DNA of 64,000 bases from a virus. The DNA lies in IMG/VR virus record IMGVR_UViG_3300050821_005814, positions 1 to 64,000 of that record, one strand, 5' to 3'. The notes under the pieces are model-generated. The model was not told where the DNA came from and did no database searches. It saw only the letters and a program-made list of their open reading frames with translations. Positions 9,512 through 30,936 of this stretch are shown here, piece after piece. The position numbers were made by a program, and so were the translations under genes. The first letter of the stretch is position 1, and each line of letters starts with the position of its first letter.

Positions 9512-9871
9512 CTAAGGGCAGGTAATCTCGAACAGCTGCGTACCACTGCTATCTGTCACAAGGAATGGACGCGTGCCATGCTTGTAGCAAGTGATCACCG
9601 GCTTGAAGCTATCTGGCAGCACCAACGTGTTCTCCGCGTACCCTGGGATTGCAAGCTCACCAAACTGCATGCCTGTTCCCTTGCGCTGCTCACCAGGGTT
9701 TAGCTTACTGATGCTAAACAAAGTATCCCATGATAGCGGTAGTTTGCAGCCGGATTGCTCGTAGCAAGGCGGAATGTCACCACCGATAGTAACGCTTGCA
9801 GTCTGCGCATACGCAACAGCAGCAAGAGTAGGCGGGGCAATGAGCCCCGCCAGTAGCAGCAGTCGCAGCAT
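9512..9871 (-). CDS. Small exported protein (Sec signal peptide)
   Basis: MLRLLLLAGLIAPPTLAAVAYA|QT; four Cys. Confidence 0.6.
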   Translation of the reverse strand: MLRLLLLAGLIAPPTLAAVAYAQTASVTIGGDIPPCYEQSGCKLPLSWDTLFSISKLNPGEQRKGTGMQFGELAIPGYAENTLVLPDSFKPVITCYKHGTRPFLVTDSSGTQLFEITCP

Positions 9872-10335
9872 TACTGAAGCGGCGGCGGTTTGTCAGACGG
9901 ATCAAGCAGCGGGAAGATCTGCATGATCACGTTCGTGCCATAGACCTGACCAACAAGCTTCTTGACGACGACGATCTCACTCGCCGTGAGCGTCGCTGTC
10001 TTGTCGTCCTTGATGCGCTCAGCAAGCGCACCACGCGCCCACTTCTGTTCAGGCGATACGCTGCTGACACCCTGCGCATTCGTTTCGCTAGGCAAGTTCG
10101 CAAACAGCGCATTCGCGATTGCATGTCCGACTGTCAAGTTGCCGCATGCCGAGCAATCGATACCACCGGGCTTCGTAGCGTCCGCCTTGCCTTCCAACTG
10201 ATCGATGATCGGCTTGCCTTGCGGATCCTTGAGCACGACTGTCATATCGATGACGCGGGGCGGAGGTGTATCGGCTGCCATGCCGACCTGAATTCCGGCG
10301 AGCAGCAGCACGCCAGCAAGTACATAGGCTTTCAT
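9871..10335 (-). CDS. Signal-peptide protein resembling phage fibre-associated chaperones
   Basis: MKAYVLAGVLLLAGIQVGMA|ADT; L.D..GKPI...LT.G...ANAL...KW.R..LA..I...LT..E...KK pattern seen in small genes following tail fibres; CxxC. Confidence 0.6.
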   Translation of the reverse strand: MKAYVLAGVLLLAGIQVGMAADTPPPRVIDMTVVLKDPQGKPIIDQLEGKADATKPGGIDCSACGNLTVGHAIANALFANLPSETNAQGVSSVSPEQKWARGALAERIKDDKTATLTASEIVVVKKLVGQVYGTNVIMQIFPLLDPSDKPPPLQ

Positions 10336-10370
10336 TTCCTGACCTCATCTTAGGGTTGTAGGCTAGCGCG

Positions 10371-10382
10371 CATAATATACCC
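10371..10382 (-). promoter_or_regulatory. Putative phage promoter -10 motif GGGTATATTATG
   Basis: Member of the recurrent intergenic GGGTATAT(T)G family; ~35 nt upstream of the 10335 start. Confidence 0.5.
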
Positions 10383-10408
10383 GATCCGCTCGCGCGCTTT
10401 CTAGAGCG

Positions 10409-12484
10409 TCATGTCGTCGGGCTGATCATCCATTTCCAATCGGACCTGAATGAGGAGACGACGTTTGCATATGCAAGTTGCCCATTAAGGTAGCTTGTCG
10501 GATTGACAGACCCCGCAGTGCCTGCTGTGAAGCCCATCGCCATCCCGCAACGTAGAATGTTGAAGTACGGGTAAAACCCAGCAATGCCTGTACCCGTGTT
10601 GACGAGATGCGTGTTGTCGATTGGCGTGAACCCTTCTGTCGCGCCTGCTGTGTTTTGGAAGTTCCACTCATCAGGCCAATTCGTGACATTCGGTCCCCAT
10701 ACAAGCTGATTTACACCAGCCGCATGCGTGCTCGGTGCACTGAGATTCCAGACAGTCGCAGACGCGAAGCTCGTGATCGTATAGGTGTTACCAGCGATGA
10801 CGACGTTGAATGGAAACGTCGACGGGAAGATGGCGGAAGGCGCTGCTGTCGTCGGGTAGAGCCCGCCGCTCACTGCATTAGCGAATGCAAGTGCGCAACT
10901 TGGATTCAACGTGATCGTCGTGTCGCCTATATTGAGCGGCGTACTTGCATCAAGCGTTGCAATGCCCCCGACTGGCGCATCATACCAGTTGGGCATCGAC
11001 TTGTTCCACCCGCTCGTGCCATTCGTCCGGTTGACTGCACTTGTGATCAAGCCTGCTGCAAGCGTAAGGATGCCTGTCGGTACTGTCAGTACGCCATTCG
11101 TGTTCCAGTAGACGCCAAGGTTTGCTATGATTGTCTGATAGTCATTCTCCCATGGCGACACCACACCGACCAGCGGATCCGCTACGCTCGGCGTGTACAT
11201 ATTTAAGCCGGTCCACAAATTGCTGGGCGTTGTCGTCACCCACTGCGTAATCGTATTCCCATATTGCGTCAGGATGGTATTGACTTGCGTTTTTGACAGC
11301 AACCAATTTGGCGTACTGCTTCCAGTGCAAATCACTGCCATCATTGCAGTGCGAATCGGCCATGCCATATACCGGCCGGAGTTTGAGTAGCGAAACCCTT
11401 GTCCAAAGTTGAGCAGGTCCCTGTTCATCTGGAACTGGATGTTTTCCAGATAGTAGGGATCGCCAGTCATCATGAAAGCAAGATACGAGAAGTTCGGACT
11501 ATGCCCCGCATCGTAGGTCATGTTTGACCCGCCGACATACGGGTACTGGTAGACTGTCTGCACTAGCGTGCCGCCAGGCGACGCGCCTGACACTAAGCTT
11601 GCGCGTTGGAATGCACCAGTCGGCGTGCAATCAAGCGGCGCAAGCGTTCCCGTGAATGAGCCGCCAGATGCACGCGTATCGCGGTAGACCAGGTTCCAGC
11701 TACAGGCGGCCTCAGCGATCTGAAATATATTGCCGATCGCATTACCCGTGCAGAGGTAGTAAGCTTGCCACTCAGTGAAAGGTCCGATCTCTGGACGATT
11801 GCCGCCCTGGATCATCGGCTGAACCAGTCCCGCATTACCGAGGATCGTATAGGTCTCGGTCGTTGGTACTGTCGATCCAGCACCGCTCAGTCCCGATCCT
11901 GAGTACGGCGGCAGGTAGAAGTTAGCTAATAGTTGCGCAGCTGTTTGCGTTACGGGGCGTGGGTTGCCTATCGCCCATGTCCCGCCGTTTTGTGAGCATA
12001 CCCGCCAACGCGTGCACCATGGATGCGCAGCTACGGTTGTAGAATAAACTGTCGTACCGTTGTTAGTGATCGTTATCGTATAACCAGCAGCAATATCAAC
12101 AGCACCGCTCGTCGCACTACCGTCGCCATATTCAAGCCTGCATGCTGTGACGTTTTGTGTACCTGCTGTATCGACCTCGAAGTACAAACGGAAGTTAGCT
12201 AAGCCTGAATTTGTGATAAGCGTGGGGACCATCGTGAACTGGCTGCTACCGCCACGTCCCCAATCGGTATAAGACTGCTGCGCGGTGACGGTCTGACCGG
12301 AGCCACCAGCCATGGCATAGTTGTAGGTGCCTGCAAATGCACCGCTCGGCACAACGATCTGTGCTGCAAGCCCACTTGCTGCAACGACTGCTCCAACACC
12401 GCGAACAATCGCATGCGCTTTGCGCGCTGTCGCTGAAGCAACGGCACCTCCTAGGAAGCCTCGACGTGAGAGCTTATACGTCAT
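10409..12484 (-). CDS. Tat-exported protein, putative alpha/alpha-barrel carbohydrate-active enzyme
   Basis: MTYKLSRRGFLGGAVASATARKAHA| twin-arginine signal; internal GNRPEIGP..EW, YDAGHSP..SYL.FMMTGDPYYLE motifs. Confidence 0.6.
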   Translation of the reverse strand: MTYKLSRRGFLGGAVASATARKAHAIVRGVGAVVAASGLAAQIVVPSGAFAGTYNYAMAGGSGQTVTAQQSYTDWGRGGSSQFTMVPTLITNSGLANFRLYFEVDTAGTQNVTACRLEYGDGSATSGAVDIAAGYTITITNNGTTVYSTTVAAHPWCTRWRVCSQNGGTWAIGNPRPVTQTAAQLLANFYLPPYSGSGLSGAGSTVPTTETYTILGNAGLVQPMIQGGNRPEIGPFTEWQAYYLCTGNAIGNIFQIAEAACSWNLVYRDTRASGGSFTGTLAPLDCTPTGAFQRASLVSGASPGGTLVQTVYQYPYVGGSNMTYDAGHSPNFSYLAFMMTGDPYYLENIQFQMNRDLLNFGQGFRYSNSGRYMAWPIRTAMMAVICTGSSTPNWLLSKTQVNTILTQYGNTITQWVTTTPSNLWTGLNMYTPSVADPLVGVVSPWENDYQTIIANLGVYWNTNGVLTVPTGILTLAAGLITSAVNRTNGTSGWNKSMPNWYDAPVGGIATLDASTPLNIGDTTITLNPSCALAFANAVSGGLYPTTAAPSAIFPSTFPFNVVIAGNTYTITSFASATVWNLSAPSTHAAGVNQLVWGPNVTNWPDEWNFQNTAGATEGFTPIDNTHLVNTGTGIAGFYPYFNILRCGMAMGFTAGTAGSVNPTSYLNGQLAYANVVSSFRSDWKWMISPTT

Positions 12485-13497: not shown

Positions 13498-13506
13498 CAG
13501 ATACCT

Positions 13507-15867
13507 CTATGGCTGCGCAAACGGTGTGCCGGCGTCGTAGCGAGCCTTTGCAGGCAAGCCTGAGTAGGTTGTGCAGGGGCCTGGCCCAGAAGCAGCAGCG
13601 ACCTTTGTCGCGCCTTGTGAGTTGACCCACGGCCATGAGTAGCTGCAAGTCGCTCCTGCGCTGAAGTATGCAGGGGCGCTGGACAGGTATAGCGAGTTCG
13701 GTAGCGTTGTCGTGAAGCCTGTCGTTGAATCAAGCGCGTTGCGCACGTAATCAAAGTTCTGACTGCGAAAAATCCACTGTGGGCTGACCGCTGCTGTCAA
13801 GTTTGCATCCGGTGCAGGCCACTCACTACCAACCCATCCTGTCATCCAAAGACATTTATTGGTGCATCCGCTATGCGCGCTAAACGCACCCTGATACGAC
13901 CAACCATTCCCTGCTGTTGTAAGACCTGCAAGCCCAAGCACGTTTCCAATGTATGCGTAGAAAACATTCAATGCCATAGGACCGGCAGCACGACGCGGCC
14001 CAGGAGAAGTGGCAGGAGGCGTTGCTCCTCCGCCAGATCCCCACGCTATATCTGCTGCATCGTTAACAATGCGTCCTGTACTAGCTTCAGTCCAGGTTGA
14101 TCGCGTCGCTGTGCAGTTGTTGCGGAAGAATACGTGATACGCAGCGCTACCATGCGTCTCATCACCATCGCAGTTGTCTGCCCAGTTACCTTCGAACAGT
14201 ACGTGATTCGTGCCCGCATAGTGGCTGCTATTGAGCGACATGTCCTCCCAAGAAGGCCCTATGACACTCTGCATATACGCATGGTCGTCAACGTAGTTGT
14301 ACGAGATGACATTCGTTGTCGAGCCTCGACCGACCATTCCCTTGCCGCCGCGCAGGATGATGCTGTCTTGGACGAGAACTTGCGTCGACGCGGAGTCCAA
14401 CGCTACGGGGTACTCGACGCCATTGTTCTCGCAGTCGGTGCAGTCATGGGAGAACAGTTCATCGATTTCTACACGCGCTGAATACTCAATGTTGACGGCG
14501 CCTGAGATCCAATTACGCACCTCCACGTTCTTAACCCAGCTCAGAGCTGCGAACTCAAACGAAATCCCACCATTCGGTGGACGATCAATGTACAAGTTTT
14601 CGATGCCGGCTTGCTGCAAGAACGGGTTGGCGGACGGCCCCTGCACGGTCGGCCAGTAGACACGCGCGTCATGGCTGCCAGACTGGCGGAAACCATTCGA
14701 GAGGGGCGCATCAAACGTGAGAGTACCAGAACCAATGGACGTAATCTTATGGATTTCAGATGTCAGTCGATTCGGACTAAATGAATAAGTACTTGGTTCA
14801 TCTCCTCCCTCAAACCGTCCGACTTGCGGTGAGCCGACATTGCTAGACCACTCCGGTGAAGCGTTGATTGCAGCGCCGCCGGTTGGATTCGTTGTGCTTA
14901 CAACTGCGGGGTTCTCGTCAATCAGCGCATACATACCAACTGAGAAATTAGCAGTACTTGATACGCTAACAGTCGTAGCGCCCGCAGCAGCATCTGCAGT
15001 TAGCGTTGCCCCGCAGCCAGTCGGCGTCGTGCCGAGGAAGCATCCGGCCCAACCCCAATTGAATGTCCCAGACGGCGATACGAGAAAGACCGGGCCGCCC
15101 GAGCACGTGACAAGGTTTGTTGCTGAGGTGCCGCAGGTAACGCCCGCCTGCGTTGTGCTGACCCACCAATCAGGAATTGCGCCGTTGTCAACTGTGATCC
15201 CAGATGGCCAGCAAGGCACGCCAGTACCGAAGAAGATGTTGTCCCCGCTCGCGACGCCAGTGCCAGTCGCGTTACCGGATAGCGTGACGGTCGTGCTCGT
15301 AAAGCTTGCAACAGTCAAGCCAGTGATCACGCCGCTCGAGATGTTCGTTTTGTCTTGCACCGTCATCCCGACTGCAACTGTCGCTGGAACTGATGCAAAC
15401 GACAGGACGTTGTTTCCTGCTGCTGTTGCCGCGTTGGTAGTCACGCCTCCGCCAATAATGCCGCACGTACCTGTCGGCGATCCAGCCCCTCTGATTGTGA
15501 TTGCTTTGTTGAGCAAAATTGACGTTTCCGACATCGTGATGTGGAACGCGCCATTCAGCGAAACAACCTGCCCTGCTGTGCATGCCGCAATAGCAGCGGT
15601 GATCTTTGATGCATCATCGCCTGACGCTGGCGGCGTGATGCCGCTTGGCGTGACAGTCTGGCAGATCGTGTTGCGCGTGGGGATGCCGCTAATGCTTGCC
15701 AACCCAGCGTTGGGCCAATTCGTAGTCGACAGGTCATTGTATGCAGGCAGCACGGGCTGGCTTACTGCTACAATACCCGTGCCATGCGGCGGTGCTGCTA
15801 ATGCAAAGTCCGGTATGAACCATGCAAGCATCAGCAGCAGATTGAAGATGAAGCGGTATGTGCGCAT
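13507..15867 (-). CDS. Pectin-lyase-like beta-helix protein (putative depolymerase/adhesin) with signal peptide
   Basis: Start ATG 15867 (TGATG overlap): MRTYRFIFNLLLMLAWFIPDFALA|; DDASKITAAIAAC...ITIRGAG, GIENLYI, SWVKNV, NVISYNY, NHVLFEGN beta-helix pattern. Confidence 0.7.
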   Translation of the reverse strand: MRTYRFIFNLLLMLAWFIPDFALAAPPHGTGIVAVSQPVLPAYNDLSTTNWPNAGLASISGIPTRNTICQTVTPSGITPPASGDDASKITAAIAACTAGQVVSLNGAFHITMSETSILLNKAITIRGAGSPTGTCGIIGGGVTTNAATAAGNNVLSFASVPATVAVGMTVQDKTNISSGVITGLTVASFTSTTVTLSGNATGTGVASGDNIFFGTGVPCWPSGITVDNGAIPDWWVSTTQAGVTCGTSATNLVTCSGGPVFLVSPSGTFNWGWAGCFLGTTPTGCGATLTADAAAGATTVSVSSTANFSVGMYALIDENPAVVSTTNPTGGAAINASPEWSSNVGSPQVGRFEGGDEPSTYSFSPNRLTSEIHKITSIGSGTLTFDAPLSNGFRQSGSHDARVYWPTVQGPSANPFLQQAGIENLYIDRPPNGGISFEFAALSWVKNVEVRNWISGAVNIEYSARVEIDELFSHDCTDCENNGVEYPVALDSASTQVLVQDSIILRGGKGMVGRGSTTNVISYNYVDDHAYMQSVIGPSWEDMSLNSSHYAGTNHVLFEGNWADNCDGDETHGSAAYHVFFRNNCTATRSTWTEASTGRIVNDAADIAWGSGGGATPPATSPGPRRAAGPMALNVFYAYIGNVLGLAGLTTAGNGWSYQGAFSAHSGCTNKCLWMTGWVGSEWPAPDANLTAAVSPQWIFRSQNFDYVRNALDSTTGFTTTLPNSLYLSSAPAYFSAGATCSYSWPWVNSQGATKVAAASGPGPCTTYSGLPAKARYDAGTPFAQP

Positions 15868-17342
15868 CAGTGAAACGCCGCCGCTGCTGCGAAGCACGTC
15901 GACCCCGCGAAGGAGATCAACGTCCATGTCCAGTTCTCAGCAGCAGTCGTTGAGTTGTACAGAATGGCCATACCATCCCCATTGTTCATGAAATCAGCAT
16001 CCGCATCGCCTGTGTAATTGACGAGCGCATACTGCGCTCCTGCAGGCGATGTTACGCCAGTCGTGTAACTGCTTGGTGCAAAATGACCGATGACCAAACC
16101 ATTCGAGTGCGTTGGCGTGATGTTCGGCGCACCGCCAAACGATGTCACGCTTGAGCAGCTACCTGTCGGTGCAAGCGCCGCCCCGACATCAAACGCCGTT
16201 GCATTTAGTACATCAAACATGCGCACTGTCGTGTTAGGTGTCGTGTTAGCAGCGCTGCTGTAGTGCACCGTGACGAATGTGTTGCCCGTCGATGCTGCGC
16301 AGAAGCAGTACCATATGAATTTGTTGCTGTCAGCGGAAAGCCACGTGTTGCCGTCGCTATCCGTCACGGCTGGCGTCTGAAACGACCAACCAAAGCCTTG
16401 CAGGAACGACCCATCCATGATGCGCAGGTTGCCGGTGAACTGCGCTTGCAGCACCCAGTTAAAGTTTGCTGGCGCGATGGGCGCTGCTGTGAGGTCCAGG
16501 AGCTTGCGGACGTAGATAGTACTCGGCAGTGATCCGCCTGCTGATGCTACTTTCAGCGGGACCGTGATGACGTTGAAGTGGTCGCTCGTGTTCCCTGCAA
16601 TCGTCATGGACGGCGTTGTCGCTGCTGCCGTGCGCTGCAAGAACATCTGCGTCGCATGGTAGAACGACGTGTTCGAGTTCCATGCAGTATCCTGGTCGAC
16701 TTGCGTGTACCCACTTGCGGCCGTGTAGGATGTCGGGTTACCAGCGCCTGTACCACTCGCCATCGCTAGGTAGCTGTAGACGAGTGTGCCGCCAGCAGCA
16801 TCGTTGTTTGACGGCGTGAGTGAGCCTGGGTTGACGACACTCGTCCCAGCATTGATCGCCGAATTAGCAACGCATGAGGCCGTGCCATTGACAGGCGACG
16901 CTGTCGCTATGTTGTTGAACTCAACAAGCGTCATCTGGAAGGGACGCGTCAACGATGTCAAGTTGACTGTGACAAAGTCCCGTCCTGCAGGCATGGCAGG
17001 CACAAGCCAAACGGCTGTCGTGTAGTTGCCTACTCCCGCATCTGCTGTGCAGATAGGCGATCCAAACGTTGTACCATTCGTGTCCGTGATCGAAGAGAAT
17101 GTGCCGTGCGGGTAAGACACGCCGACATATAGCAGGTCATTCGCTTGGATCGCATTGGGTAGCTGGCGAACGTAGTTGTTGCCGTTAAACCCAGCGCCCC
17201 CTGGATTGACGGTTGTTGATGCCTGCTGAATGATCACAGGCGTTGGCGGACCACCCCCACTGACAATCCCCCCGCCATGCGGAAGGAATGCTAGTGCGGG
17301 ATGCGATAGCAGCAGCGCGAGAAGAACGAGCAGACGCTTCAT
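15867..17342 (-). CDS. Exported two-domain beta-sandwich protein
   Basis: MKRLLVLLALLLSHPALA|FLPHGGG; two copies of the (I/V)TD..G.T(F/W) module. Confidence 0.65.
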   Translation of the reverse strand: MKRLLVLLALLLSHPALAFLPHGGGIVSGGGPPTPVIIQQASTTVNPGGAGFNGNNYVRQLPNAIQANDLLYVGVSYPHGTFSSITDTNGTTFGSPICTADAGVGNYTTAVWLVPAMPAGRDFVTVNLTSLTRPFQMTLVEFNNIATASPVNGTASCVANSAINAGTSVVNPGSLTPSNNDAAGGTLVYSYLAMASGTGAGNPTSYTAASGYTQVDQDTAWNSNTSFYHATQMFLQRTAAATTPSMTIAGNTSDHFNVITVPLKVASAGGSLPSTIYVRKLLDLTAAPIAPANFNWVLQAQFTGNLRIMDGSFLQGFGWSFQTPAVTDSDGNTWLSADSNKFIWYCFCAASTGNTFVTVHYSSAANTTPNTTVRMFDVLNATAFDVGAALAPTGSCSSVTSFGGAPNITPTHSNGLVIGHFAPSSYTTGVTSPAGAQYALVNYTGDADADFMNNGDGMAILYNSTTAAENWTWTLISFAGSTCFAAAAAFH

Positions 17343-24000: not shown

Positions 24001-24621
24001 GGCGCTAGCCTTCTGAATGGCTGGTGCACCGTCTGACCGCATATAGGTCGTGGCTGTGCCATTGATTGCAGTCGGTCCGGCCGTTGCCGTCGGGTTGGCT
24101 GCTGTCGGTGCCGTTGCAGGCGTCTGCCAGGTTGCTGCTGTGCTGCTCGTAGCCGTCAACACCTGCCCTGGACTGGGGGCTGTTGCAGCGCTGACGTTCA
24201 CGATGGTCGTCGCTGAGTTCAGCGCATTCGTTGACGTTGAAACGAGGTTGCCGGTGATGTTGGGACTGGGGATTGTCAACCCAGATGGCAAGGTCGTTGA
24301 AATCGTCGGGGCGCCTGACCCATTCGTCACCAGCACGCCATTGTTGGCAGTCGCTAGGTTAGCGACAACGCCAGCAAGGTTGTATAGCAGCCCATTGGTC
24401 GCACCGCCGCTGATCGTCGTTGTGCCGATGATGATTGCAGAGCTCCCGCTGCTCGAGCACGTCGGGCAGGAGATCTTGCGCAAGCCATACCCGGGGCCTG
24501 ATGGCGTCACGACTATCGGCGCGACGCCAACGATGTCAGGCGGTGGGGGGTTGGCTGCTACTGCGTTGTGCGCAATGACCAGCGCAAGCAGTATGGTAGC
24601 AATGGCTACAATGCGGCGCAT
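18088..24621 (-). CDS. Giant repetitive fibre/adhesin-like protein (2177 aa) with signal peptide
   Basis: MRRIVAIATILLALVIAHNAVA|; T/A/G/S-rich, nearly uncharged; several internal repeat families. Confidence 0.75.
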   Translation of the reverse strand: MRRIVAIATILLALVIAHNAVAANPPPPDIVGVAPIVVTPSGPGYGLRKISCPTCSSSGSSAIIIGTTTISGGATNGLLYNLAGVVANLATANNGVLVTNGSGAPTISTTLPSGLTIPSPNITGNLVSTSTNALNSATTIVNVSAATAPSPGQVLTATSSTAATWQTPATAPTAANPTATAGPTAINGTATTYMRSDGAPAIQKASAIQFGLVETDGSTISNAAGVISCTTATTGQLGCVRPDGATITITGGVITAVGGSATSIVPGTTTIGGGTPPCAIVNSAGTTMVCDAINAGVITAMANAVNAASGLLTFSIIGTSGALVPVLNGNNTWAGTQAHNDGSLALNGSTSGQVVLHAPATGGGAITFPAGAATLLAINGNGSGLTGLTYSQLPALAANQLLGALTATTPSGLAVPSCSTAGSALNWTSGTGFSCNTSITAASMALGGLTGLGANVATALAVAVGNAGAFVTFNGAGGTPSSIVLTNATGTAASLTAGIATTANALNSATTTIVVNGATAPGAGQVLTATSGTAANWQTPAAAPAGANPSATASNTAVNGVATTFMRSDAAPAIQLGSASQFGLVKVDGTTITASAGVISASGGSATTIIPGTTTITGATAPCAIVNSATTVMACDAISASVITAMANAVNAASGLLTFSIIGTSGATVPLLNGNNTYSGTSIFSGAVSHTGALPTQAAGTLGIAGNVTSPTLAANGEGDVYLLSTTGGLALIGQGSTNDLTLLNKAGSNVCVVPTGTTTFNCTGLQVGGVAVSTATAANPTATAGSAAVNGSATTFMRSDAAPAVALGSASTFGVVKVDGTTITASAGVISAVGGSATSITPGTTTISGGLSPCLLANSTGSTSACITLGTTFSMSGGALASLVPDTTHTVSASVANAGGQDNYNGSSITATGLAAPPANSTQLIVNQNASALTIANNSVTVNGLALSTTLRTNGFYVYTSNGTSWDAYGFPGFGTITTNALMKFADGSGAATASTITDAGAGVTIGSPTGGAQGAGTLNATGLFINGATALTIAGSNHNVLFNGSGALSGSPGFNFDGTSIISIGISGTATGTITFATLGGGVTTLVPTSSASSPTITLPSTSGTVTVLGNTVTGSSGTIVEATSPSIATPTFTGTVPSFTVATITGALTGHASADCALAACTMTGELTTVASATGTAGLNLPQGAAPTAPVNGDLWTTASGLFVRIAGATVGPLAASGGAPAFSSITSGTNTAAAMVVGSGATLAITGAAPTQAAGTLGLAGGITTPTLAANGEGDVYLLSTTGGLALIGQGSTNDISVFNKSGTSVCTVATGTTNWNCTGLQVGGTAVSTAAAANPTATAGSTANNGTATTFMRSDASPAVALGSASTFGLVKVDGTTITASGGVITASGGSATTITPGTTTVSGATAPCLIANSATTVMQCVALSSAFSISGGTLASLVTDSTHTVSAAVANPGGQDNYNGTSITATGPASPVANATQLITNQNATVLTIANNSVTVNGLALSTSLHTNGFYSYTFNGTSWDAYGFPGFGTITTNAVMKFLDGSGAAAASTITDAGAGVTVGSPTGGAQGAGTVNATGLFINGVAAVTSNNWTATAVTAIGATLTNSAGTLSCTTATASVIGCSRPDGTTITISAGVLTASGGSATTITPGTTTVVGATSPCVLQNPSTTVLSCGVVASTLLTSAATTHTTSATTANLGGEDDYNGSSITATLATLASGQTAFITDQNATTLTIANNSQTVNGLPLSTSLHTGGFYGYNFNTTTSQISAWGFPGFGTITSGALMKFLDGTGAATAGDLSGDITTAGALVTTLATVNANVGSFGDATHVGQFTVNAKGLITAAASVAITASASTITPGTTTISGATAPCAIVNSATTVMACDALGTGVVTALAVNVGSAGAFVTFNGAGGTPSALTLTNATGLPAGGLVAIAANTVLANATSGSASPTAFAMPSCSTASSALIYTSGTGIGCTANMATLNTADQTLSGGFNLTAFSIGTVTTGTTTIDCGKNPGQWMVDAGASTIAAPTSDGSCLVRVYLGGGFGTITFSGFNAEGTNTGDTIPSADKSTATATFTNASANIGWTNTLSVGQPVYFTNAGGGLPTNFTSGTVYYVIATGLSGTNIQVAATPGGTAITAGSAGTGTQTGHAAASYLLSISRVNGGAKYLASADQ

Positions 24622-24626
24622 GTAAA

Positions 24627-25106
24627 TTAGCCTCCGATTGCGGAGATCTGAGCGGTACCGTTGTCGCAGATGGCGTTGATGACGGCTCCCGGTGCTGGCG
24701 GGGGGTCGACAGTGAACGAACCACCACCTGGATAGATCGGCGCACCGACACCTACCTGCGCAGCACTACCATCGACGGTGATCCACACGGTTCCCGGCGG
24801 ATCACCAGCCCCAGGGGACGTTGAAGTCGTTGTATTGAATATGGTCACAAGACGCGTGATCACGCCAGCAGCAACGATAGCGGTCGTCACGCCGCCAACT
24901 GTCGTTGCCTCCAGTATGGAGCCTTGCGGCAGGTAGGCGAGCGTGCCGTGCGATGTCGGTAGCGGGTTGGTCGGACCGACTGGCGCGCCATTGACGCGCT
25001 GCGCTGTCTGAAACGCAAGGTTACCGCTACTGTCTGCGACTGCTTGGAATGGACGCTCGTCTCCAAGGCCATCGATGACTTGAACCGTTGTGGTTGTATC
25101 AGCCAT
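24627..25106 (-). CDS. Hypothetical small structural protein (no signal peptide)
   Basis: 159 aa; GAGG RBS; PVGPTNPLP motif common in phage structural genes. Confidence 0.6.
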   Translation of the reverse strand: MADTTTTVQVIDGLGDERPFQAVADSSGNLAFQTAQRVNGAPVGPTNPLPTSHGTLAYLPQGSILEATTVGGVTTAIVAAGVITRLVTIFNTTTSTSPGAGDPPGTVWITVDGSAAQVGVGAPIYPGGGSFTVDPPPAPGAVINAICDNGTAQISAIGG

Positions 25107-25128
25107 GATGCAAACACCTCATATGAAT

Positions 25129-28100
25129 TTAGATTTGCGAGCTGCGCGTCATGGTGCAGCGTCCGCCAATATCCCATGTGTTCACGGTCGGCGTGATCTC
25201 GAGATCAATTGCGCCAAGCGTTGTGTCAGCAGCAGGTGCCGCAATGGAGATACGCCCGCCTGCACTCGATGTCGCGTAGTCCTGCGTCCATGATGTGGGG
25301 AGCCCTATGATTTGCGTTGTCGATGCTGTCGCACCCATCTGCGCACCAAATGCGACATGCCAACCAATCGCATCGCTACCACCGTGATTCAAGCTTGTAG
25401 CTGCGACAGTGCAGACAACGTTCACAGTCGAGTGCGGCGGGAAGTTAAGCGTGTTGCCTGCAATCTGCAGTGTGACCGTCGCGCCTGATCCCCCACCACC
25501 TGACACGGCTGCAGTCGCCTCTGCAACGCAACCCGTTCCTGGATTGTTGACGCCAATGTTGCCAAGCGTACCGCCAGCACCGAGATCACCATTGACGATG
25601 GCACCCGTGCAGCCAGTAACTGTGATCGTCGGTAACGACGTGTAGCCAGTACCGCCCAAAGGTCGGTAGACGTTATAGATGTAGGAGCTCGCTGCCTGCC
25701 CATTGCTTGTCAGGCGCGTGTTGCCCGTGATGCCTGTCGCCTGGATCGTGCAAGCGACTATATGCGGTGCGCGATAGTCACAATTGCTGAAGGTCGTCGA
25801 TGCGACATCAACAGCCGACCCAAGCGAGCTACCAGGGCCACCCTGCGACTGAATGATTGCGCCGAATGCATTGTTGGGGAACCCGCCATACTCCTGCCCC
25901 AAGCACATGATGCACTTGTAGCCTGTGACGACTACGCCCGACTGCTCCCCCCATACCAACCCAAGGTCTGGTCCCAAAGCACCGAGTGCAGCGTTTGGCG
26001 TTGAGCCGCCAATGTGAACGTATAGTCCTTGCGTGTTGCGCATGTAGGTGACGCCAGACACCGCAAGCAAGTCGTTCTCGTAGTTTGCGCAACCATGCAC
26101 AAACGATGTACCAGCTAACTCTTCGCAATAGGATCCATAGGTCGTGTGCGCTCCCTGGTAGACGGTTGCTGAACCGCCCTCATTGCTTTGGATCCAAATC
26201 GCCGTGTTGATCGCTTGGTCAATCCCAGGGTTGGTGTGCGTGCCAACTGCTGTCATGCTTTGCGAGCTAGCGCTGATTGACTGGCTTAGGTTGTAGGTGC
26301 CGTTCCCACCGGTGCCTGTACCAAATGACACGATCGTCAGCGGAACAGGTGCACCTGAATAGGTGATCGTCTGACCAATGAGGAGCGGTGACCCAGAGTA
26401 TGCGCTGACGGTCAAGAGACCGCTTGCTATGACGCCAGTAAACGTGCCGCGCGTCTGCGCATTGCCGAGGATGTTGACGAATGCATTGAGGCCAATGCGA
26501 TTGCCGACCGCGACCGAACCATTCGGCGCGATATCGTCCTCAAGGTTGAAGAGCTGCGGGGCGTTCGTTGAGGTCGACGTGAACGAATCGCTGATCCGCG
26601 CATTCCATGCGAATGCAGTGCCTGACGTGATCGATCCTGTCACAAAGCCTGTCTCGCTCAACCATGCGGTGGGATTGGCATTGGACAGCACAGCCCCATT
26701 TCCCGTACGCGCGATGGTCGGACCAGCCGCAATGTGCGCCCAGGTGCTCTCGCCAGCAAAGTTGGTTACCGCACTAGCGTTGCCGATGTTGGTCGCAGTC
26801 GCGCTGGTCGTGCCGACGCCAATGGCATTTGCAATTGCATAGGCAAAGTTTACCTGTGCGCCAGTGCCTGTGCCGCCAAGGAGCGTGACAGGATTGGTCG
26901 GCGCTGCGCTTGCGTAGTGACCAGGCGTGACGATTGTGTACCCAACGATCTGATTGCTGCCGTTCACTGAGATCGACAGTATCGTGCCTGTCGATGGGTC
27001 ATACAGGTGATCCGTCGATCGGTAGTTGGTCCCGGTGACACCGCTCGGTACTGTCGCAGCGTTGACCTCTCCCCCACCAACATCGATCGTCGCAGTCGAA
27101 CCGGACGTCGATATCTTCATAGACTGTACGAGGAGCTGCCCAAGGTTGCTGACCTTGAACCCGCCAGTCAAACGGAACGCTGAGTCCGTGAACTCAACGC
27201 CGGACAAGTCGATACCGCGGCCTGTCTGCGGATTCACATAGCTACCAAAGCCTGAGAACTGATCAGGCGCTCCCGGGTTGTACCCAAAGAGCGTGCCACC
27301 TGCAGTCGCTGCGAAGGTGTTTCCCCCGCCTACTGCGTACACAAGGTTGAAAGGAGCAGTGCCTCCCGTAACGGAGATAGCTTGGTCTATTTCGTTCCCT
27401 TGCAAGTTGCCGTACCCGACGACATGCAGACCATAGCGCGTCGCAGCCGATGCGCCTGTGTAAATGCCGACGTCAATCTCGCGCCCCGCGCATCCGGACA
27501 AGTTGGTAGCGCCAGCGAAGCACCACATCTGGTCGCCGCCAGCATATACGAAGCCGGCTGACGATCCGCCATTAGGTGCTGTGCCGCCTTGGTTAGCTGA
27601 GATCGCAGTCGTCAAAACCTGCGCTTGCCACTGACGACCAGTATCGGATGTGCTGCCGATGAACGACTGAATGTTGAGCGATACGTTCTGCGCAGAGCGC
27701 GAACCGCTACCATTCAAGCTGACGTAGTTCCAAGTGCAGGTACCGTCGGCAATGCCAGTACCGGTGCCTGTAGGACCTGTGCCGCTGCTGCTTGATGTGC
27801 AGGAGGCAGCAGTCTCTGTGTAGTAATTCCCATTGGCTGCGCGATTGTTCCCCGTCACATAAGCCGTGCTCTGCTGCCAGGGTGCGCCGCCATATGCACC
27901 GCCGATCAAAAACCACGTCGCACCTTGCGATGCATTCGGGATAGCAGAGATGTCCTGATTGATGACTATCTTGTTGGCTGCGATCGTGCCAGATGACACA
28001 GACCCCGCAAGATTAAGCGATTCGAGGAACCCATACTGCGTGCCGATACCAGCTTGCGTGCCAGAGAAGGTCAACGTCCCACCAACGCCTGCGTACAGCG

Positions 28101-30936
28101 AGTTCGTCTGGATCTGGCTGCTGCCGCCTGTGACTACGAACGTGCTCCCCGCATTGCTAAAGTTCATGACAGCAATGCTGCCGATACCATAGCTTGGGTC
28201 ACCGAACGTGATGTGCGTCCCGTTGCCGCCAGGCGACACGATTAAGTTCGTCGTATTAGCTGACTCAAATGCTGGTGCAAACGTCTTGTTCGCAATGGAT
28301 ATGACAGCGCTGCTGTTGCCAATGTTGATTGCAGTCGCAACGCCAGTACCAAGGTTCAACGTTGTAGGCGCACTCCAGGTCTCAGCAATCGTCAGCCCCG
28401 ATCCATGCCCATTGGATGCCGCATAGGTGCCTGAAGTCGTCGCACCATAACCAACATTCTTAAGCGCTATGCCGCCTGCTTGCACCACACCGCCAATGAC
28501 GTTGGTCAGGTTCCAGCTGTTGCCATTCGCGTCATACACATCCTCACCTTGGATGTAGTTGTTGCCGCCTGCGGCAACTGACGATGCAGTTAGCTGATTG
28601 CGCGTGACGTCAATCGTAGCGCCATTGGATAGCAGCGCGATGGTGAGCGCGCCCGATGACAACGCCCCTGTACCTGCGACATTGAACCCGGCTGATTGCA
28701 GGAAGTTACCCGTGAAGTGCACATCAGGCTGGCAATACCCGCAGGCGGATGCCATCGGCTTGAAGGGCACAGTGTTGTCAGAAGCGTTGGCCGTCTGGCG
28801 ATACTCGCCGATTTGCGTGCCGCCGGAATCACCGGGGTACTGTCCGTCCGGACGCCCAAACGCGACAAGATTCAAACCGCCGACAGTGCTACTCGCTGCG
28901 ACGTTGTTCTGACTTGAGATGCCGATGAAGGTGTCATACAGGCCGCCTTGAACCGCATCACCAGTCTCATTGATGAACGTCCTGATTGCCTTGTAGCTGA
29001 GCACTGATCCGCCAAGGACCTTGATATTGTCCTCGGCACCAAACGCGCCATAAGCTGTTGTGTTCGCAGCGACAACTGTCTGCACACCGCCTGCATAGTA
29101 CTTCGCTAATGGATTCGTGCATCCAGCACATCCAGCGAATAGCCAAGATGCTTGCGCGTTGATCGATGCGCCGCTGGCCATATTGCCGTTCTGGTTCATC
29201 TGTGAAAGGTTGCCGATGCGAGCACCAGCAAATGCACTGCCACCAAAGTTTGCATAGACAGCAGTATCGGCAATCGCTTGCACAGTTGAGTTCACGTTGT
29301 CTGTGGGGACCGTAAACTTCATGAAGGCATCCTGACCACCGCTATAGGTGCCTGTGAAGCTTGCGGAGAATAGCGCGGGGTAAGGAATGGTCGTGCTGCT
29401 CAGCGTATAGGTCGAGCCGGGCGAACGATAGAACTGCGCATTCAGTAGGTTGTTGACAGTAAGGACATGGCCGGTTGTACCATTGACGGGCAACCCAGCG
29501 GACGAGAAGGTCATCGTCGCTATGGAGCCAACGCCGAAGGACCCCGCGCCAAATTGAATGTTCTGATTCGTGCTACCAGGACTAATGATGAGCGCTTGAC
29601 CGCTTCCGCCTAGGATCGAGCCGTTAGACCCTGTCGCATTGAACGTCGCAACGCCGTTGAACGTGGCACCATTCGTTACGGTCAGCCCTGTGCCTGACCC
29701 CGTGAAGGATGCAGCACCATTCGCGGACAACGTAGTGAATGCGCCAGTCCCTGGCGCTACATTGCCGATCGGCAGGGGTGACGAGAAGAGCGCTGTAATC
29801 CCAGTGCCTGTTACAGCGCCGCTTGCAGTCAACGTTGTGACGTTCGCGGCTGCTGGTACGCTCCCGCCTAGCACTGCGTTGTCGATTGTGCCGCCAGACA
29901 TTGTTGGCACGCTAAGCGTGAGACCTGCGATCGTTGTCGTCGTCGCGCCCAGCGTCAATGCAGTGCTGCCAAGCGTCAACCCCGCATTCGCCAACCCTGC
30001 ATTCGCTAGCGACCCATTGGTCACATGCGATAGATTGCTCACTGTCAGGGCGCCTGCATTATTGAGCGATGCGTCACCCGTGACAGCAACAGGCGTTGCT
30101 ATACCGAAGTTGTTTCCGATGAGGATGTCCGCATTGGCAAGGGCGCTCCCTTGCGGCGTGTACCCCAATGCCCCTGTGACATCACCGGACGTCAGCGTCA
30201 CAGCTCCCATGCGGCCAAACACGCTGACGACGTTAGCTGCAAGGTTGCCAAGCGAGCTTGTAAGCCCAGCACCGACACTGAGTGTCGCAAGCGCGCCCAA
30301 CCCCGACACGTCGGCGGCAGTCGGTTGCGTCAAATGCGCGTTACCGGCCGTGTCAATGTACGCGACAAATTGATGGGTGACGGGCGCGATTGCTTCGATC
30401 CCGCCCAAGCTCGACAATGTCGGGAGCGGCAAGTCTGCGCCAACGAGCAAGCGGAAGCTAGGCGCGCCGCCAGACCCCGCCGGCGCTCCATAAAAGCTGT
30501 TCTGCGATTGCGCAGCGGACAGCGTCAATGATTGCGCTGTGATCGTCGTCGCTTTGATGGTGTTTGGCGTTGTGATGCCAAGGGGCGGCGGCGTTGCGAA
30601 ATAGTTGATAAAGCCTGCTCCGCTGACAACACCTGACGCGGACAGCAGCGTGAACAACCCTTGATTGGGAACTGATCCGCCGATGACGCCAGGCGATCCC
30701 CAGGTGCCGCCCTGCAATGTCGCAGCGTCAAATGATCCGCCAGCTATCGCGTCAGCGATTTGCTGCACCGTGAATGCGACTGTCAGCCCGTTCTGCGCCC
30801 CTTGGATCAAATCCTGCGGGTTCACAGTCGTGACACGCTGACACGTCTGCGGCCATGCGCCAGTGCACGAGGCTTCCGCCCCATGCGCCGCGCACAAGCC
30901 TGCTAGCACGATCAATGCTGCTCGCAACCAACGCAT
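25129..30936 (-). CDS. Giant tail-fibre-like protein (1935 aa) with signal peptide
   Basis: MRWLRAALIVLAGLCAAHGAEA|; fibre motifs VVSVFGRMGAVTL, PSFRLLVGADLP, WQQSTAY..G, GTGYTSLPTITVTG. Confidence 0.75.
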   Translation of the reverse strand: MRWLRAALIVLAGLCAAHGAEASCTGAWPQTCQRVTTVNPQDLIQGAQNGLTVAFTVQQIADAIAGGSFDAATLQGGTWGSPGVIGGSVPNQGLFTLLSASGVVSGAGFINYFATPPPLGITTPNTIKATTITAQSLTLSAAQSQNSFYGAPAGSGGAPSFRLLVGADLPLPTLSSLGGIEAIAPVTHQFVAYIDTAGNAHLTQPTAADVSGLGALATLSVGAGLTSSLGNLAANVVSVFGRMGAVTLTSGDVTGALGYTPQGSALANADILIGNNFGIATPVAVTGDASLNNAGALTVSNLSHVTNGSLANAGLANAGLTLGSTALTLGATTTTIAGLTLSVPTMSGGTIDNAVLGGSVPAAANVTTLTASGAVTGTGITALFSSPLPIGNVAPGTGAFTTLSANGAASFTGSGTGLTVTNGATFNGVATFNATGSNGSILGGSGQALIISPGSTNQNIQFGAGSFGVGSIATMTFSSAGLPVNGTTGHVLTVNNLLNAQFYRSPGSTYTLSSTTIPYPALFSASFTGTYSGGQDAFMKFTVPTDNVNSTVQAIADTAVYANFGGSAFAGARIGNLSQMNQNGNMASGASINAQASWLFAGCAGCTNPLAKYYAGGVQTVVAANTTAYGAFGAEDNIKVLGGSVLSYKAIRTFINETGDAVQGGLYDTFIGISSQNNVAASSTVGGLNLVAFGRPDGQYPGDSGGTQIGEYRQTANASDNTVPFKPMASACGYCQPDVHFTGNFLQSAGFNVAGTGALSSGALTIALLSNGATIDVTRNQLTASSVAAGGNNYIQGEDVYDANGNSWNLTNVIGGVVQAGGIALKNVGYGATTSGTYAASNGHGSGLTIAETWSAPTTLNLGTGVATAINIGNSSAVISIANKTFAPAFESANTTNLIVSPGGNGTHITFGDPSYGIGSIAVMNFSNAGSTFVVTGGSSQIQTNSLYAGVGGTLTFSGTQAGIGTQYGFLESLNLAGSVSSGTIAANKIVINQDISAIPNASQGATWFLIGGAYGGAPWQQSTAYVTGNNRAANGNYYTETAASCTSSSSGTGPTGTGTGIADGTCTWNYVSLNGSGSRSAQNVSLNIQSFIGSTSDTGRQWQAQVLTTAISANQGGTAPNGGSSAGFVYAGGDQMWCFAGATNLSGCAGREIDVGIYTGASAATRYGLHVVGYGNLQGNEIDQAISVTGGTAPFNLVYAVGGGNTFAATAGGTLFGYNPGAPDQFSGFGSYVNPQTGRGIDLSGVEFTDSAFRLTGGFKVSNLGQLLVQSMKISTSGSTATIDVGGGEVNAATVPSGVTGTNYRSTDHLYDPSTGTILSISVNGSNQIVGYTIVTPGHYASAAPTNPVTLLGGTGTGAQVNFAYAIANAIGVGTTSATATNIGNASAVTNFAGESTWAHIAAGPTIARTGNGAVLSNANPTAWLSETGFVTGSITSGTAFAWNARISDSFTSTSTNAPQLFNLEDDIAPNGSVAVGNRIGLNAFVNILGNAQTRGTFTGVIASGLLTVSAYSGSPLLIGQTITYSGAPVPLTIVSFGTGTGGNGTYNLSQSISASSQSMTAVGTHTNPGIDQAINTAIWIQSNEGGSATVYQGAHTTYGSYCEELAGTSFVHGCANYENDLLAVSGVTYMRNTQGLYVHIGGSTPNAALGALGPDLGLVWGEQSGVVVTGYKCIMCLGQEYGGFPNNAFGAIIQSQGGPGSSLGSAVDVASTTFSNCDYRAPHIVACTIQATGITGNTRLTSNGQAASSYIYNVYRPLGGTGYTSLPTITVTGCTGAIVNGDLGAGGTLGNIGVNNPGTGCVAEATAAVSGGGGSGATVTLQIAGNTLNFPPHSTVNVVCTVAATSLNHGGSDAIGWHVAFGAQMGATASTTQIIGLPTSWTQDYATSSAGGRISIAAPAADTTLGAIDLEITPTVNTWDIGGRCTMTRSSQI

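What the first reader, a model, noticed from the sequence alone, without database searches (positions are those of the whole stretch)
9512..30936. 21-kb block of signal-peptide-bearing fibre/adhesin genes embedded in the virion morphogenesis operon
Seen: ten co-oriented, tightly packed genes (several with overlapping stop/start codons) lie between the head-tail adaptor and the neck gene. Nine start with export signals: Sec-type with n-h-c regions, most with AxA cleavage (25129, 18088, 17339, 15867, 13507, 12484, 9871, 9512), and one Tat (10409). The large ones are nearly uncharged, T/S/G/A-rich, carry phage-fibre motifs and have regularly paired Cys. Two further signal-peptide genes lie in the late arm (36994, 48071). 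Known: tailed-phage structural proteins normally fold in the cytoplasm and lack signal peptides. Inference: either a virion appendage whose subunits and chaperone are exported, disulfide-bonded in the periplasm and joined to particles at or after lysis, or a phage-encoded cell-surface/extracellular structure made during late infection. This is the best candidate for an undescribed system here.
Basis: partly seen in the sequence, partly recalled or inferred. Interest (0 to 1): 0.92.

Follow-up and report, generated by a model that had tools for sequence, protein, structure and literature searches.

The report
Exported fibre and depolymerase genes in phage
A soil phage carries, in the middle of its head-to-tail genes, a 21-kb set of ten genes of which nine make giant fibre-like proteins and sugar-cutting enzymes that start with ordinary bacterial export signals, so they probably fold outside the cytoplasm, which is not the described route for tailed-phage parts.

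Summary
Ten co-oriented, translationally coupled genes (9512-30936, minus strand) lie between the head-tail adaptor and Neck1 genes of a Magia-like myovirus. In distant relatives those two genes are adjacent, so the block is an insertion. Eight proteins start with Sec-type leaders and one with a textbook Tat leader. By my rule that is 8-9 of 10 in the block against 10 of 136 elsewhere. gpA and gpC have 10 and 15 locally paired cysteine pairs.

The leaders are conserved in homologues: gpA 1 of 1, gpC 19 of 24, the three nearest gpH homologues (all RR), and most gpF relatives. Other uncultured phage contigs carry the same cassette (giant fibre, small protein, gpE-like, gpF-like) with leaders, again inside structural operons.

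gpF models as a beta-helix capsule depolymerase and gpH as an (alpha/alpha)6 glycosidase-like barrel. gpC shares modules with tail fibres.

Export and periplasmic folding are well supported. Whether the products then dock on virions or act free is open.

The scan has reported similar exported phage fibres on other DNA. Leader-bearing structural proteins annotated by MS/MS in Cellulophaga phage phi18:3 are a cultured precedent.

The parts
30965..31633 (-). Head-tail adaptor (DUF4054, phrog_302) with an 82-aa N-terminal extension that relatives lack. It is the upstream border of the block.
   Evidence: DUF4054 covers residues 83-192 only; the adaptor in relatives is about 127 aa; it is followed directly by Neck1 in L154-L158.
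25129..30936 (-). gpA, 1935 aa. Sec-type leader ending AEA|S, 6% charged residues, 10 local Cys pairs. Giant fibre-like protein with no known family.
   Evidence: The only homologue, P0172 (56% identity over half the length), also has a Sec leader and paired Cys.
24627..25106 (-). gpB, 159 aa. The only block protein without a leader. Function unknown.
18088..24621 (-). gpC, 2177 aa. Sec-type leader ending AVA|A, 15 local Cys pairs. Built of large internal repeats; mosaic modules are shared with phage tail fibres.
   Evidence: residues 671-1034 match 1229-1593 at about 80% identity; 19 of 24 homologues have Sec leaders.
17339..18091 (-). gpD, 250 aa, Sec-type leader ending AEA|A. Function unknown. 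A gpD-like gene is present in the cassette of L217, and a protein of similar size in L216.
15867..17342 (-). gpE, 491 aa, Sec-type leader, post-signal motif FLPHGGGIV. Member of a family found beside gpF-like genes in phage contigs and in bacterial MAGs.
13507..15867 (-). gpF, 786 aa, Sec-type leader, motif APPHGTGIV, 16 Cys. Right-handed beta-helix protein resembling polysaccharide depolymerases.
   Evidence: Pfam Beta_helix E 0.0019, below the curated cut-off. 1212 homologues, most with leaders. AF2 model with pLDDT 65.5. Foldseek match to 7W1C at E 2e-9, plus phage tailspikes.
12484..13497 (-). gpG, 337 aa, Sec-type leader, motif LPPRAGGTV, 67% T/S/G/A with long Gly runs. Function unknown.
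10409..12484 (-). gpH, 691 aa, Tat-type leader (SRRGFLG...AHA|I), motif IVRGVGAVV. N-terminal beta-sandwich followed by an (alpha/alpha)6 barrel resembling GH105/GH88 enzymes.
   Evidence: AF2 pLDDT 83.8, pTM 0.88. VIA Z 10.8, rmsd 3.8 A, 277 residues aligned to 4XUV.
9871..10335 (-). gpI, 154 aa, Sec-type leader, one CxxC pair. Function unknown.
9512..9871 (-). gpJ, 119 aa, Sec-type leader ending AYA|Q, 4 Cys. Function unknown.
8920..9510 (-). Neck1/tail-completion gene (phrog_222). It is the downstream border: its ATG lies 2 nt after the gpJ stop.

Best explanation
The block is an accessory cassette inserted into the late structural operon of a roughly 107-kb myovirus. It is transcribed and translated with the head and neck genes. 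Eight products cross the inner membrane by Sec and one (gpH) by Tat. Their leaders are removed by signal peptidase I, and they fold and form local disulfide bonds in the periplasm.

The cargo is directed at surface polysaccharide. It comprises two giant modular fibres (gpA, gpC), a beta-helix depolymerase-like enzyme (gpF), an (alpha/alpha)6 glycosidase-like enzyme (gpH), and partners of unknown fold (gpD, gpE, gpG, gpI, gpJ).

I favour that these proteins are set free when the phage's own endolysin and spanin-like pair open the envelope, or earlier through a host type II pathway. They would then work outside the cell as soluble or envelope-bound factors that bind and cut the host's exopolysaccharide or capsule around the burst.

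Shown here: the gene layout, the insertion, the leader features and their conservation, the cysteine pattern, the folds of gpF and gpH, and the recurrence of the cassette in other phages. Inferred: actual export, leader cleavage, disulfide formation, the substrates, and where the proteins end up.
For: Insertion: in relatives L154-L158 the adaptor and Neck1 genes are adjacent, and Burkholderia phage Magia has no such block.

Integration into the operon: starts are coupled. Promoter-like and terminator-like sites are no more frequent than in shuffled sequence. Codon usage matches the rest of the phage (r = 0.97).

Export: leaders in 8-9 of 10 block proteins against 10 of 136 elsewhere. RR is kept in the three nearest gpH homologues although the leader sequences have diverged. 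The single gpA homologue has a Sec leader. 19 of 24 gpC homologues do. 76 of 150 gpF representatives do, including nearly all full-length near ones. Cysteines are even in number and locally paired.

Glycan enzymes: gpF model against K1 capsule lyase 7W1C at E 2e-9, plus LKA1, AP22 and KP34 tailspikes. gpH model against GH105/GH88 at Z 9-10.8.

Bacterial kin are secreted proteins: gpF-like and gpE-like genes lie directly downstream of a T2SS operon in an alphaproteobacterial MAG (L185) and next to a Wzz gene in L184.

The phage has its own leaderless tail fibres, an endolysin and a leader/lipoprotein pair at 99.8-104 kb.

The same cassette with leaders occurs in other phage contigs, L215 and L216.
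Against: No trained signal-peptide predictor and no experiment were available, so export and cleavage are inferred.

Free secretion gives no obvious role to two 2000-aa fibres.

The cassette sits in structural operons in several phage lineages. Leaderless versions exist in L217 and L213. gpC shares modules with true tail fibres. A leader-bearing 1512-aa homologue lies right after the baseplate wedge gene in L202. All of these fit virion parts at least as well.

A basic residue at +3 to +5 of the mature end is unusual for Sec substrates.

The gpH fold match is middling for a helical repeat. The gpF model has only moderate confidence.
Confidence: 0.45

Rival explanations
1. Periplasm-matured virion appendage. 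The exported fibres and enzymes fold and are disulfide-bonded in the periplasm. They dock on finished particles when holin lesions or lysis mix the compartments, probably at the neck. They would give the virion a collar of fibres and depolymerases.
For: The block lies between the adaptor and Neck1 genes and is translationally coupled to both. The adaptor carries an 82-aa N-terminal extension absent from relatives and outside DUF4054. gpC shares modules with S74 and pectate-lyase tail fibres. gpF is closest in fold to virion tailspikes. Cassette relatives sit after the major head gene in L215 and exist leaderless in L217 and L213. A leader-bearing giant homologue occupies the tail-fibre slot in L202. 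Four unrelated block proteins share a short motif at the mature N-terminus, as docking peptides would. Cellulophaga phage phi18:3 gp085-087 have Sec-type leaders and are annotated structural from MS/MS.
Against: There is no direct evidence of attachment. The phage already has leaderless tail fibres. Bacterial gpE and gpF kin lie beside secretion and polysaccharide genes and are probably free secreted proteins. Gene position may only reflect a permissive site for late expression. Earlier checks of similar bold readings in this scan gave them low odds.
Confidence: 0.3
2. Moron-type cargo. The block is a cluster of bacterial secreted-protein genes picked up by the phage that serves the host or lysogen (surface remodelling, exclusion), not phage morphogenesis or release.
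For: The gpE, gpF and gpH families occur in bacterial MAGs, some beside T2SS or Wzz genes. The block is absent from relatives.
Against: No promoter or terminator of its own above chance. Coupled to structural genes on both sides. Codon usage is indistinguishable from the phage's. The cassette recurs inside structural operons of unrelated phage contigs. 21 kb is very large for a moron.
Confidence: 0.08
3. The hydrophobic N-termini are not export signals. The proteins stay in the cytoplasm as ordinary fibres whose N-termini serve assembly or are removed by a phage protease.
For: No trained predictor or experiment was available. Capsid proteins with predicted 'signal peptides' have been explained by prohead-protease cleavage (PMC10367356).
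Against: The n-h-c architecture with AxA is present in eight proteins, plus a full Tat consensus in the ninth. The leaders are conserved as leaders while their sequences diverge. Even, locally paired cysteines fit an oxidising compartment. In the gpC family three of the five leaderless homologues have 1, 2 and 7 Cys, while most leader-bearing ones have 13-30. Bacterial kin have the same leaders.
Confidence: 0.07

Closest known systems
Phage tailspike and tail-fibre depolymerases (Klebsiella K1 capsule lyase 7W1C, LKA1 gp49, AP22 gp54, KP34p57; S74-type tail fibres)
   Same: gpF has the same right-handed beta-helix fold. gpC shares sequence modules with proteins that carry Peptidase_S74 and Pectate_lyase_3 domains. 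The genes lie in a structural operon.
   Different: The known ones are leaderless and fold in the cytoplasm. Here the proteins start with Sec or Tat leaders and are rich in paired cysteines. No S74 domain and no recognisable virion anchor domain were found in gpA or gpC.
Bdellovibrio bacteriovorus MAT (mosaic adhesive trimer) fibres (PMC10769870)
   Same: These are phage-tail-fibre-like long mosaic fibres that begin with a signal peptide and work outside the cytoplasm. gpF-like genes also occur in Bdellovibrionales MAGs.
   Different: MAT fibres are cellular proteins with a conserved ~130-aa domain after the signal peptide and are displayed by a predator. Here the genes are in a phage late operon, and gpC homologues share no conserved N-terminal domain. 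Direct homology to MAT proteins was not tested.
Cellulophaga phage phi18:3 gp085-gp087 (NC_021794)
   Same: Three consecutive late proteins with Sec-type leaders (cleavage sites before Q), annotated as structural or tail proteins from MS/MS of virions.
   Different: The host is a Bacteroidota, the proteins have almost no cysteines (0, 1, 3), and no sequence similarity to the block was found. Whether the leaders are cleaved in virions is not stated in the record.
Signal-peptide genes of Porphyromonas gingivalis phages (PMC10367356)
   Same: Phage genes of unknown function with SPase I signals, read as use of the host's general secretion system.
   Different: That paper discusses them as possible modifiers of the host outer membrane. 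It does not describe fibres, depolymerases or a large cassette.
Bacterial secreted beta-helix and gpE-like proteins beside type II secretion and Wzz loci (MAG loci L185, L167, L184)
   Same: They are homologous to gpF (37-50% identity) and gpE (32-37%), have Sec leaders, and show the same gpF-gpE neighbourhood.
   Different: They are chromosomal, lie next to T2SS or chain-length-determinant genes, carry longer N-terminal domains, and lack the post-signal P-[HR]-G-x-G motif.

Membership tests
Sec (SPase I) signal peptides | Basic n-region, 7-18 residue uncharged hydrophobic h-region, small residues at -3/-1 | tested here: met
   My own rule flags gpA, gpC, gpD, gpE, gpF, gpG, gpI and gpJ. No trained predictor (SignalP) was available.
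Sec (SPase I) signal peptides | Actual translocation and cleavage | not testable with these tools
   This needs PhoA or Bla fusions, or N-terminal proteomics.
Tat signal peptides | S/T-R-R-x-F-L-K motif, weakly hydrophobic h-region, basic c-region, AxA site | tested here: met
   gpH has SRRGFLG, then GGAVASATA, then RKAHA|I. RR and AxA are kept in P0005, P0006 and P0007. Residues 1-35 are disordered in the AF2 model.
Right-handed beta-helix polysaccharide depolymerases (tailspike-like) | Parallel beta-helix fold | tested here: met
   Foldseek gives 24 PDB matches at E <= 1e-3; the top ones are 7W1C (2e-9), 9K4A, 4RU4 and 4Y9V. Pfam Beta_helix scores only E 0.0019, below its cut-off. Model pLDDT is 65.5.
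Right-handed beta-helix polysaccharide depolymerases (tailspike-like) | Catalytic residues and activity on a glycan; trimeric state | not tested
   No residue mapping or multimer model was made.
(alpha/alpha)6-barrel glycoside hydrolases (GH105/GH88-like) | (alpha/alpha)6 toroid fold covering the domain | tested here: inconclusive
   VIA-align gives Z 10.8, rmsd 3.8 A and 277 residues aligned to 4XUV, with GH88, GH105 and GH76 filling the top ranks. Z under about 13 is not decisive for helical repeats. Foldseek against PDB gave nothing at E <= 1e-3.
S74-type phage tail fibres | C-terminal Peptidase_S74 intramolecular chaperone domain | tested here: not met
   Pfam finds no domain in gpA or gpC. 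Only some gpC homologues carry PF13884.
Bdellovibrio MAT fibres | Signal peptide followed by a conserved ~130-aa beta-rich N-terminal domain | not tested
   The signal peptide is present. No MAT sequence was compared. gpC homologues share no common N-terminal domain.
Phage morons | Own promoter and terminator, composition unlike the phage's | tested here: not met
   Promoter-like and terminator-like sites are below the shuffle expectation. Codon-usage correlation with the structural and early genes is 0.97.

The most novel reading that the evidence does not exclude
Part of a tailed-phage virion is built outside the cytoplasm. The giant fibres and the depolymerase-like enzymes are exported, disulfide-bonded in the periplasm, and then dock on the particle's neck at lysis. 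Docking would be onto the extended head-tail adaptor, perhaps through gpB, using the short P-[HR]-G-x-G-[ITA]-V motif shared by the mature N-termini as a common tag.
Probability: 0.25. Interest if true: 0.9.

Novelty: new variant of a known kind. Interest (0 to 1): 0.62.

Why it matters
Tailed-phage morphogenesis is taught as a cytoplasmic process. A large, conserved, late-operon cassette of Sec/Tat-exported, disulfide-rich fibres and depolymerase-like enzymes means one of two things. Either some phages mature host-recognition or matrix-degrading parts in the periplasm, or they secrete a glycan-attack kit during late infection. Both would change how receptor-binding and depolymerase genes are annotated in soil viromes: leaders are usually ignored or read as moron marks. 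Both would also point to host Sec, Tat and Dsb functions as factors the phage depends on. The cassette recurs in several uncultured phage lineages, and the scan has seen similar cases elsewhere, so it is not a one-off.

Tried and rejected
Searches that found nothing:
- Megablast of the whole block against 50,697 phage records: no match.
- tblastn of gpA: none. tblastn of gpC: three short module hits.
- Pfam, PHROGs and NCBIfam on all ten proteins: only a sub-threshold Beta_helix hit for gpF and one PHROG hit for gpC.
- PDB sequence searches with gpA, gpC and the gpF profile: none.
- ESM Atlas with gpA: chance-level scores.
- Single-protein scans of viral contigs with gpH and gpE: nothing. Alignments were needed.
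- Foldseek of gpH against PDB: nothing clear. Against BFVD: one uncharacterised phage protein.
- PHROGs on leader-bearing giants of other contigs: mostly no family.

Ideas considered and dropped:
- Chance clustering of leaders (Fisher p = 4e-7).
- Moron with its own signals.
- Autotransporter or two-partner secretion for gpA and gpC: no beta-barrel partner or C-terminal barrel was seen by eye; not tested further.
- gpI as a thioredoxin-like oxidoreductase because of its CxxC: no family hit.

Tools unavailable:
- The first genome-contig scan failed because the alignment was too diverse.

Full report
**What the window is.** The window is the first 64 kb of a 106,805-base IMG/VR virus record that CheckV rates complete. 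The minus strand of 1-47 kb carries a myovirus structural module:
- portal fused to a MuF-like domain, 41041-43164;
- protease/scaffold, 34796-36400;
- major head protein, 33077-34156 (phrog_264);
- adaptor, 30965-31633 (phrog_302; DUF4054);
- Neck1/tail completion, 8920-9510 (phrog_222);
- sheath, 5496-7034;
- tape measure, 2355-4382;
- baseplate hub, 315-1385.

The rest of the baseplate wraps to the other end of the record. That end also holds two leaderless tail-fibre genes (102179-103399 and 103414-103950), an endolysin (101209-101799), and a pair made of a leader protein and a lipoprotein (99864-101176). The nearest cultured relatives by capsid protein are about 40-45-kb temperate myoviruses of Burkholderia (Magia, 59% identity), Bordetella and Acinetobacter.

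**The observation.** All ten genes exist as described. They are co-oriented and tightly packed. Five of the internal junctions (gpC/gpD, gpD/gpE, gpE/gpF, gpG/gpH, gpI/gpJ) are stop-start overlaps. The starts of gpA, gpB, gpC, gpG and gpI, which follow short gaps, have GGAGG-like sites; gpF/gpG is separated by 9 nt and gpH/gpI by 73 nt. The adaptor stop is 28 nt before the gpA start, and the Neck1 ATG is 2 nt after the gpJ stop.

SignalP was not available, so I wrote a von Heijne-type rule: net positive n-region, 8-18 uncharged hydrophobic residues, small residues at -3 and -1. Alternative starts were allowed for every ORF. The rule flags 8 of 10 block proteins and 10 of 136 others (Fisher p = 4e-7). 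Several of the ten outside hits are membrane or lysis proteins.

The rule misses gpH, whose N-terminus is a textbook Tat leader: SRRGFLG, a short weakly hydrophobic stretch, a basic c-region and AHA. gpB alone has no leader.

As background, 1235 ORFs from about 80 soil viral loci gave 2.5% strong leaders.

gpA and gpC are 6.0% and 3.7% charged and 50% and 58% T/S/G/A. Their mature parts hold 20 and 30 cysteines, all in local pairs 2-30 residues apart apart from one gpA pair 85 residues apart (1842/1927). gpF has 16. gpC is built from large repeats; for example residues 671-1034 match 1229-1593 at about 80% identity.

**The block is an insertion, but an integrated one.** In five distant relatives found with the adaptor protein (L154-L158), the adaptor gene is followed within 3-15 nt by the Neck1 gene. 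Magia likewise has only small connector genes there. So 21.4 kb has been added at that junction.

It is not a recent or autonomous addition. Promoter-like and terminator-like sites inside it are fewer than in shuffled sequence. GC is the same as the rest of the phage. Synonymous codon usage correlates at 0.97 with both the structural and the early genes, with slightly lower GC3.

**Are the leaders real? Conservation.**
- gpH has eight homologues among 5.8 billion clustered proteins. The three nearest (82, 67 and 49% identical) have diverged leader sequences that all keep RR and AxA.
- More widely, the gpH family is common in soil phage contigs. Most members there have no leader. A subset, some of them in loci that look bacterial by gene content only (not annotated), has Tat or Sec leaders.
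- gpA has one homologue, P0172. It begins with a classical Sec leader and has paired cysteines.
- gpC shares mosaic modules with 24 other proteins of 1200-2100 aa. 19 of them start with Sec leaders, and most of those carry 13-30 cysteines. Of the five leaderless ones, three have 1, 2 and 7 cysteines. One of the five carries Pectate_lyase_3 and Peptidase_S74 domains, that is, it is an ordinary tail fibre.
- gpF has 1212 homologues at E <= 1e-3. 76 of the 150 listed have strong leaders, including nearly all near-full-length top hits.

**The cassette recurs in other phages with its leaders.** A scan of viral contigs with a gpF alignment found ten loci.
- In L216 the order is: 998-aa leader protein (15 Cys), 253-aa leader protein, 510-aa gpE-like leader protein, gpF-like leader protein.
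- In L215 a 1044-aa leader protein with a gpC module (27 Cys) is followed by gpE-like and gpF-like leader proteins. The trio lies shortly after the major head gene (phrog_371) and before a tail-fibre gene.
- This is the order gpC, gpD, gpE, gpF of the window, in phages with a different capsid family.
- L217 and L213 carry gpE-like, gpD-like and a 1705-aa protein without leaders and with few cysteines. So the same families exist in both a cytoplasmic and an exported form.
- In L202 a 1512-aa leader-bearing gpC relative lies 10 nt after the baseplate wedge gene, where a tail fibre is expected.

**What the proteins are.**
- gpF: the AF2 model from 19 sequences (pLDDT 65.5, pTM 0.76) matches phage capsule depolymerases and tailspikes. 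These are the K1 lyase 7W1C at E 2e-9, K64-1 S2-4, LKA1 gp49, AP22 gp54 and KP34p57.
- gpH: the AF2 model from 38 sequences (pLDDT 83.8, pTM 0.88) has a disordered leader, a beta-sandwich (40-172) and an (alpha/alpha)6 barrel (195-691). A small beta-domain inserted at 505-599 is also seen in phage tail proteins. VIA-align ranks GH105, GH88 and GH76 enzymes first (Z 10.8, rmsd 3.8 A, 277 residues aligned). That is coherent but not decisive for a helical repeat.
- gpE and gpF relatives occur in MAGs of uncultured Alphaproteobacteria, Acidobacteriaceae, Myxococcales, Bdellovibrionales and others.
- In L185 and L167, gpF-like and gpE-like leader proteins lie directly downstream of a type II secretion operon (GspF, G, K, M by Pfam). 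In L184 they lie beside a Wzz chain-length determinant.
- gpA, gpB, gpD, gpG, gpI and gpJ match no family.

**Two details that bear on mechanism.**

First, four consecutive proteins that are unrelated to each other begin their mature parts with the same short motif:
- gpE: A|FLPHGGGIVSG
- gpF: A|APPHGTGIVAV
- gpG: A|LPPRAGGTVAS
- gpH: A|IVRGVGAVVAAS

A loose form of the motif occurs at 6.4e-4 per residue in this phage's proteome. It also follows the leader in the nearest gpH and gpF homologues from other contigs (FHRGG, FPRGG, LPRGTGG, IIPRGSGG, RHGRGG, RIHHGVG, TFHGVV), but not in the more distant bacterial ones. The pattern was defined after seeing it, so the statistics are indicative only. 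It could be a docking tag or a secondary sorting or processing signal.

Second, the adaptor just upstream is 222 aa, and DUF4054 covers only residues 83-192. Relatives have a 127-aa adaptor that starts at the equivalent of residue 81. An extra domain on the neck, next to the block, would suit a docking platform.

**Weighing the readings.** I put the probability that most of these proteins leave the cytoplasm at about 0.85. That rests on leader conservation, the Tat consensus, the paired cysteines, and the contrast between leader-bearing and leaderless relatives.

Where they end up is open.
- For free or envelope-bound factors: the bacterial kin sit beside secretion and polysaccharide loci, two members are glycan-enzyme-like, and the phage has its own leaderless fibres and a lysis set that would release periplasmic contents anyway.
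- For virion docking at lysis: the position in structural operons of several lineages, the fibre modules, the tailspike-like fold, the L202 arrangement, the shared N-terminal motif, the extended adaptor, and a cultured precedent. That precedent is Cellulophaga phage phi18:3 gp085-087, which begin with Sec-type leaders and are annotated structural from MS/MS in the GenBank record.

I put 0.45 on the free/envelope reading, 0.30 on virion docking, and under 0.1 each on moron cargo and on the leaders not being export signals.

**Literature and earlier notes.** Full-text searches found no description of exported tail fibres or depolymerases in tailed phages. The closest items are the signal-peptide genes of unknown function in Porphyromonas phages (PMC10367356) and the cellular, signal-peptide-bearing, phage-fibre-like MAT adhesins of Bdellovibrio (PMC10769870). 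The scan's own index holds many similar notes on other genomes. Where later checks were made, they kept the observation and gave the virion-assembly reading low odds. I treated these notes as leads only.

**Limits.** No trained signal predictor was used and there are no experimental data. The host is unknown. As a result the contigs of several key homologues, transcript evidence and the docking test are all missing.

Noticed in passing
window 17342, 15867, 13497, 12484 (mature N-termini of gpE, gpF, gpG, gpH): A shared motif P-[HR]-G-x-G-[ITA]-V-[AS] comes directly after the predicted signal-peptidase site in four unrelated proteins. It is also present in their nearest homologues from other contigs. 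A basic residue so close to the cleavage site is unusual for Sec substrates.
   Followed up: partly
window 30965-31633: The head-tail adaptor has an 82-aa T/S/A-rich N-terminal extension outside DUF4054. Relatives have a 127-aa adaptor. Two extra charged or low-complexity genes (31634-32434 and 32487-33047) lie between the capsid and adaptor genes, where relatives have one 90-aa gene.
   Followed up: partly
G000 99864-103950 (L208 5865-9951): The record's far end holds the conventional leaderless tail fibres (178 and 406 aa, phrog_11303/863), an endolysin-like gene, and an overlapping pair of a 243-aa leader protein and a 194-aa lipoprotein that look like spanins. The baseplate module is split across the two ends of the record, as expected for a circularly permuted complete genome.
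   Followed up: partly
L202 8738-15385 (IMGVR_UViG_3300037140_000008): In another myovirus contig a 1512-aa protein with a classical Sec leader (cleavage before Q) starts 10 nt after the baseplate wedge gene, in the tail-fibre slot.
   Followed up: partly
L185 796-16989 and L167 (uncultured Alphaproteobacteria MAGs): A type II secretion operon is followed by several large secreted proteins that share a nearly identical leader (MCFIRKCL...GSAQA|Q) and carry gpF-like or gpE-like C-terminal domains. This looks like a paralogous set of T2SS substrates.
   Followed up: partly
window 41041-43164: The portal ORF (707 aa) carries a C-terminal region (about 557-694) that matches minor-head / MuF-like and polyvalent-protein PHROGs. 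This suggests a portal-MuF fusion.
   Followed up: no
window 36994-37605 and 48071-48364: Two further late-arm ORFs have leader-like N-termini and no family match. ORF 36994 overlaps another long ORF (36858-37403) in a different frame, so its reality is unsettled.
   Followed up: no
window 18088-24621: gpC contains near-identical long internal repeats: 127-340 matches 499-682, and 671-1034 matches 1229-1593 at 75-87% identity. This implies recent internal duplication, and such repeats can be mis-assembled in metagenomes.
   Followed up: partly
L217 1317-8608 and L213 12163-16110: Leaderless, cysteine-poor versions of the gpE-like, gpD-like and giant proteins sit in the same cassette order in other phage contigs. 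The families therefore switch between cytoplasmic and exported forms.
   Followed up: partly
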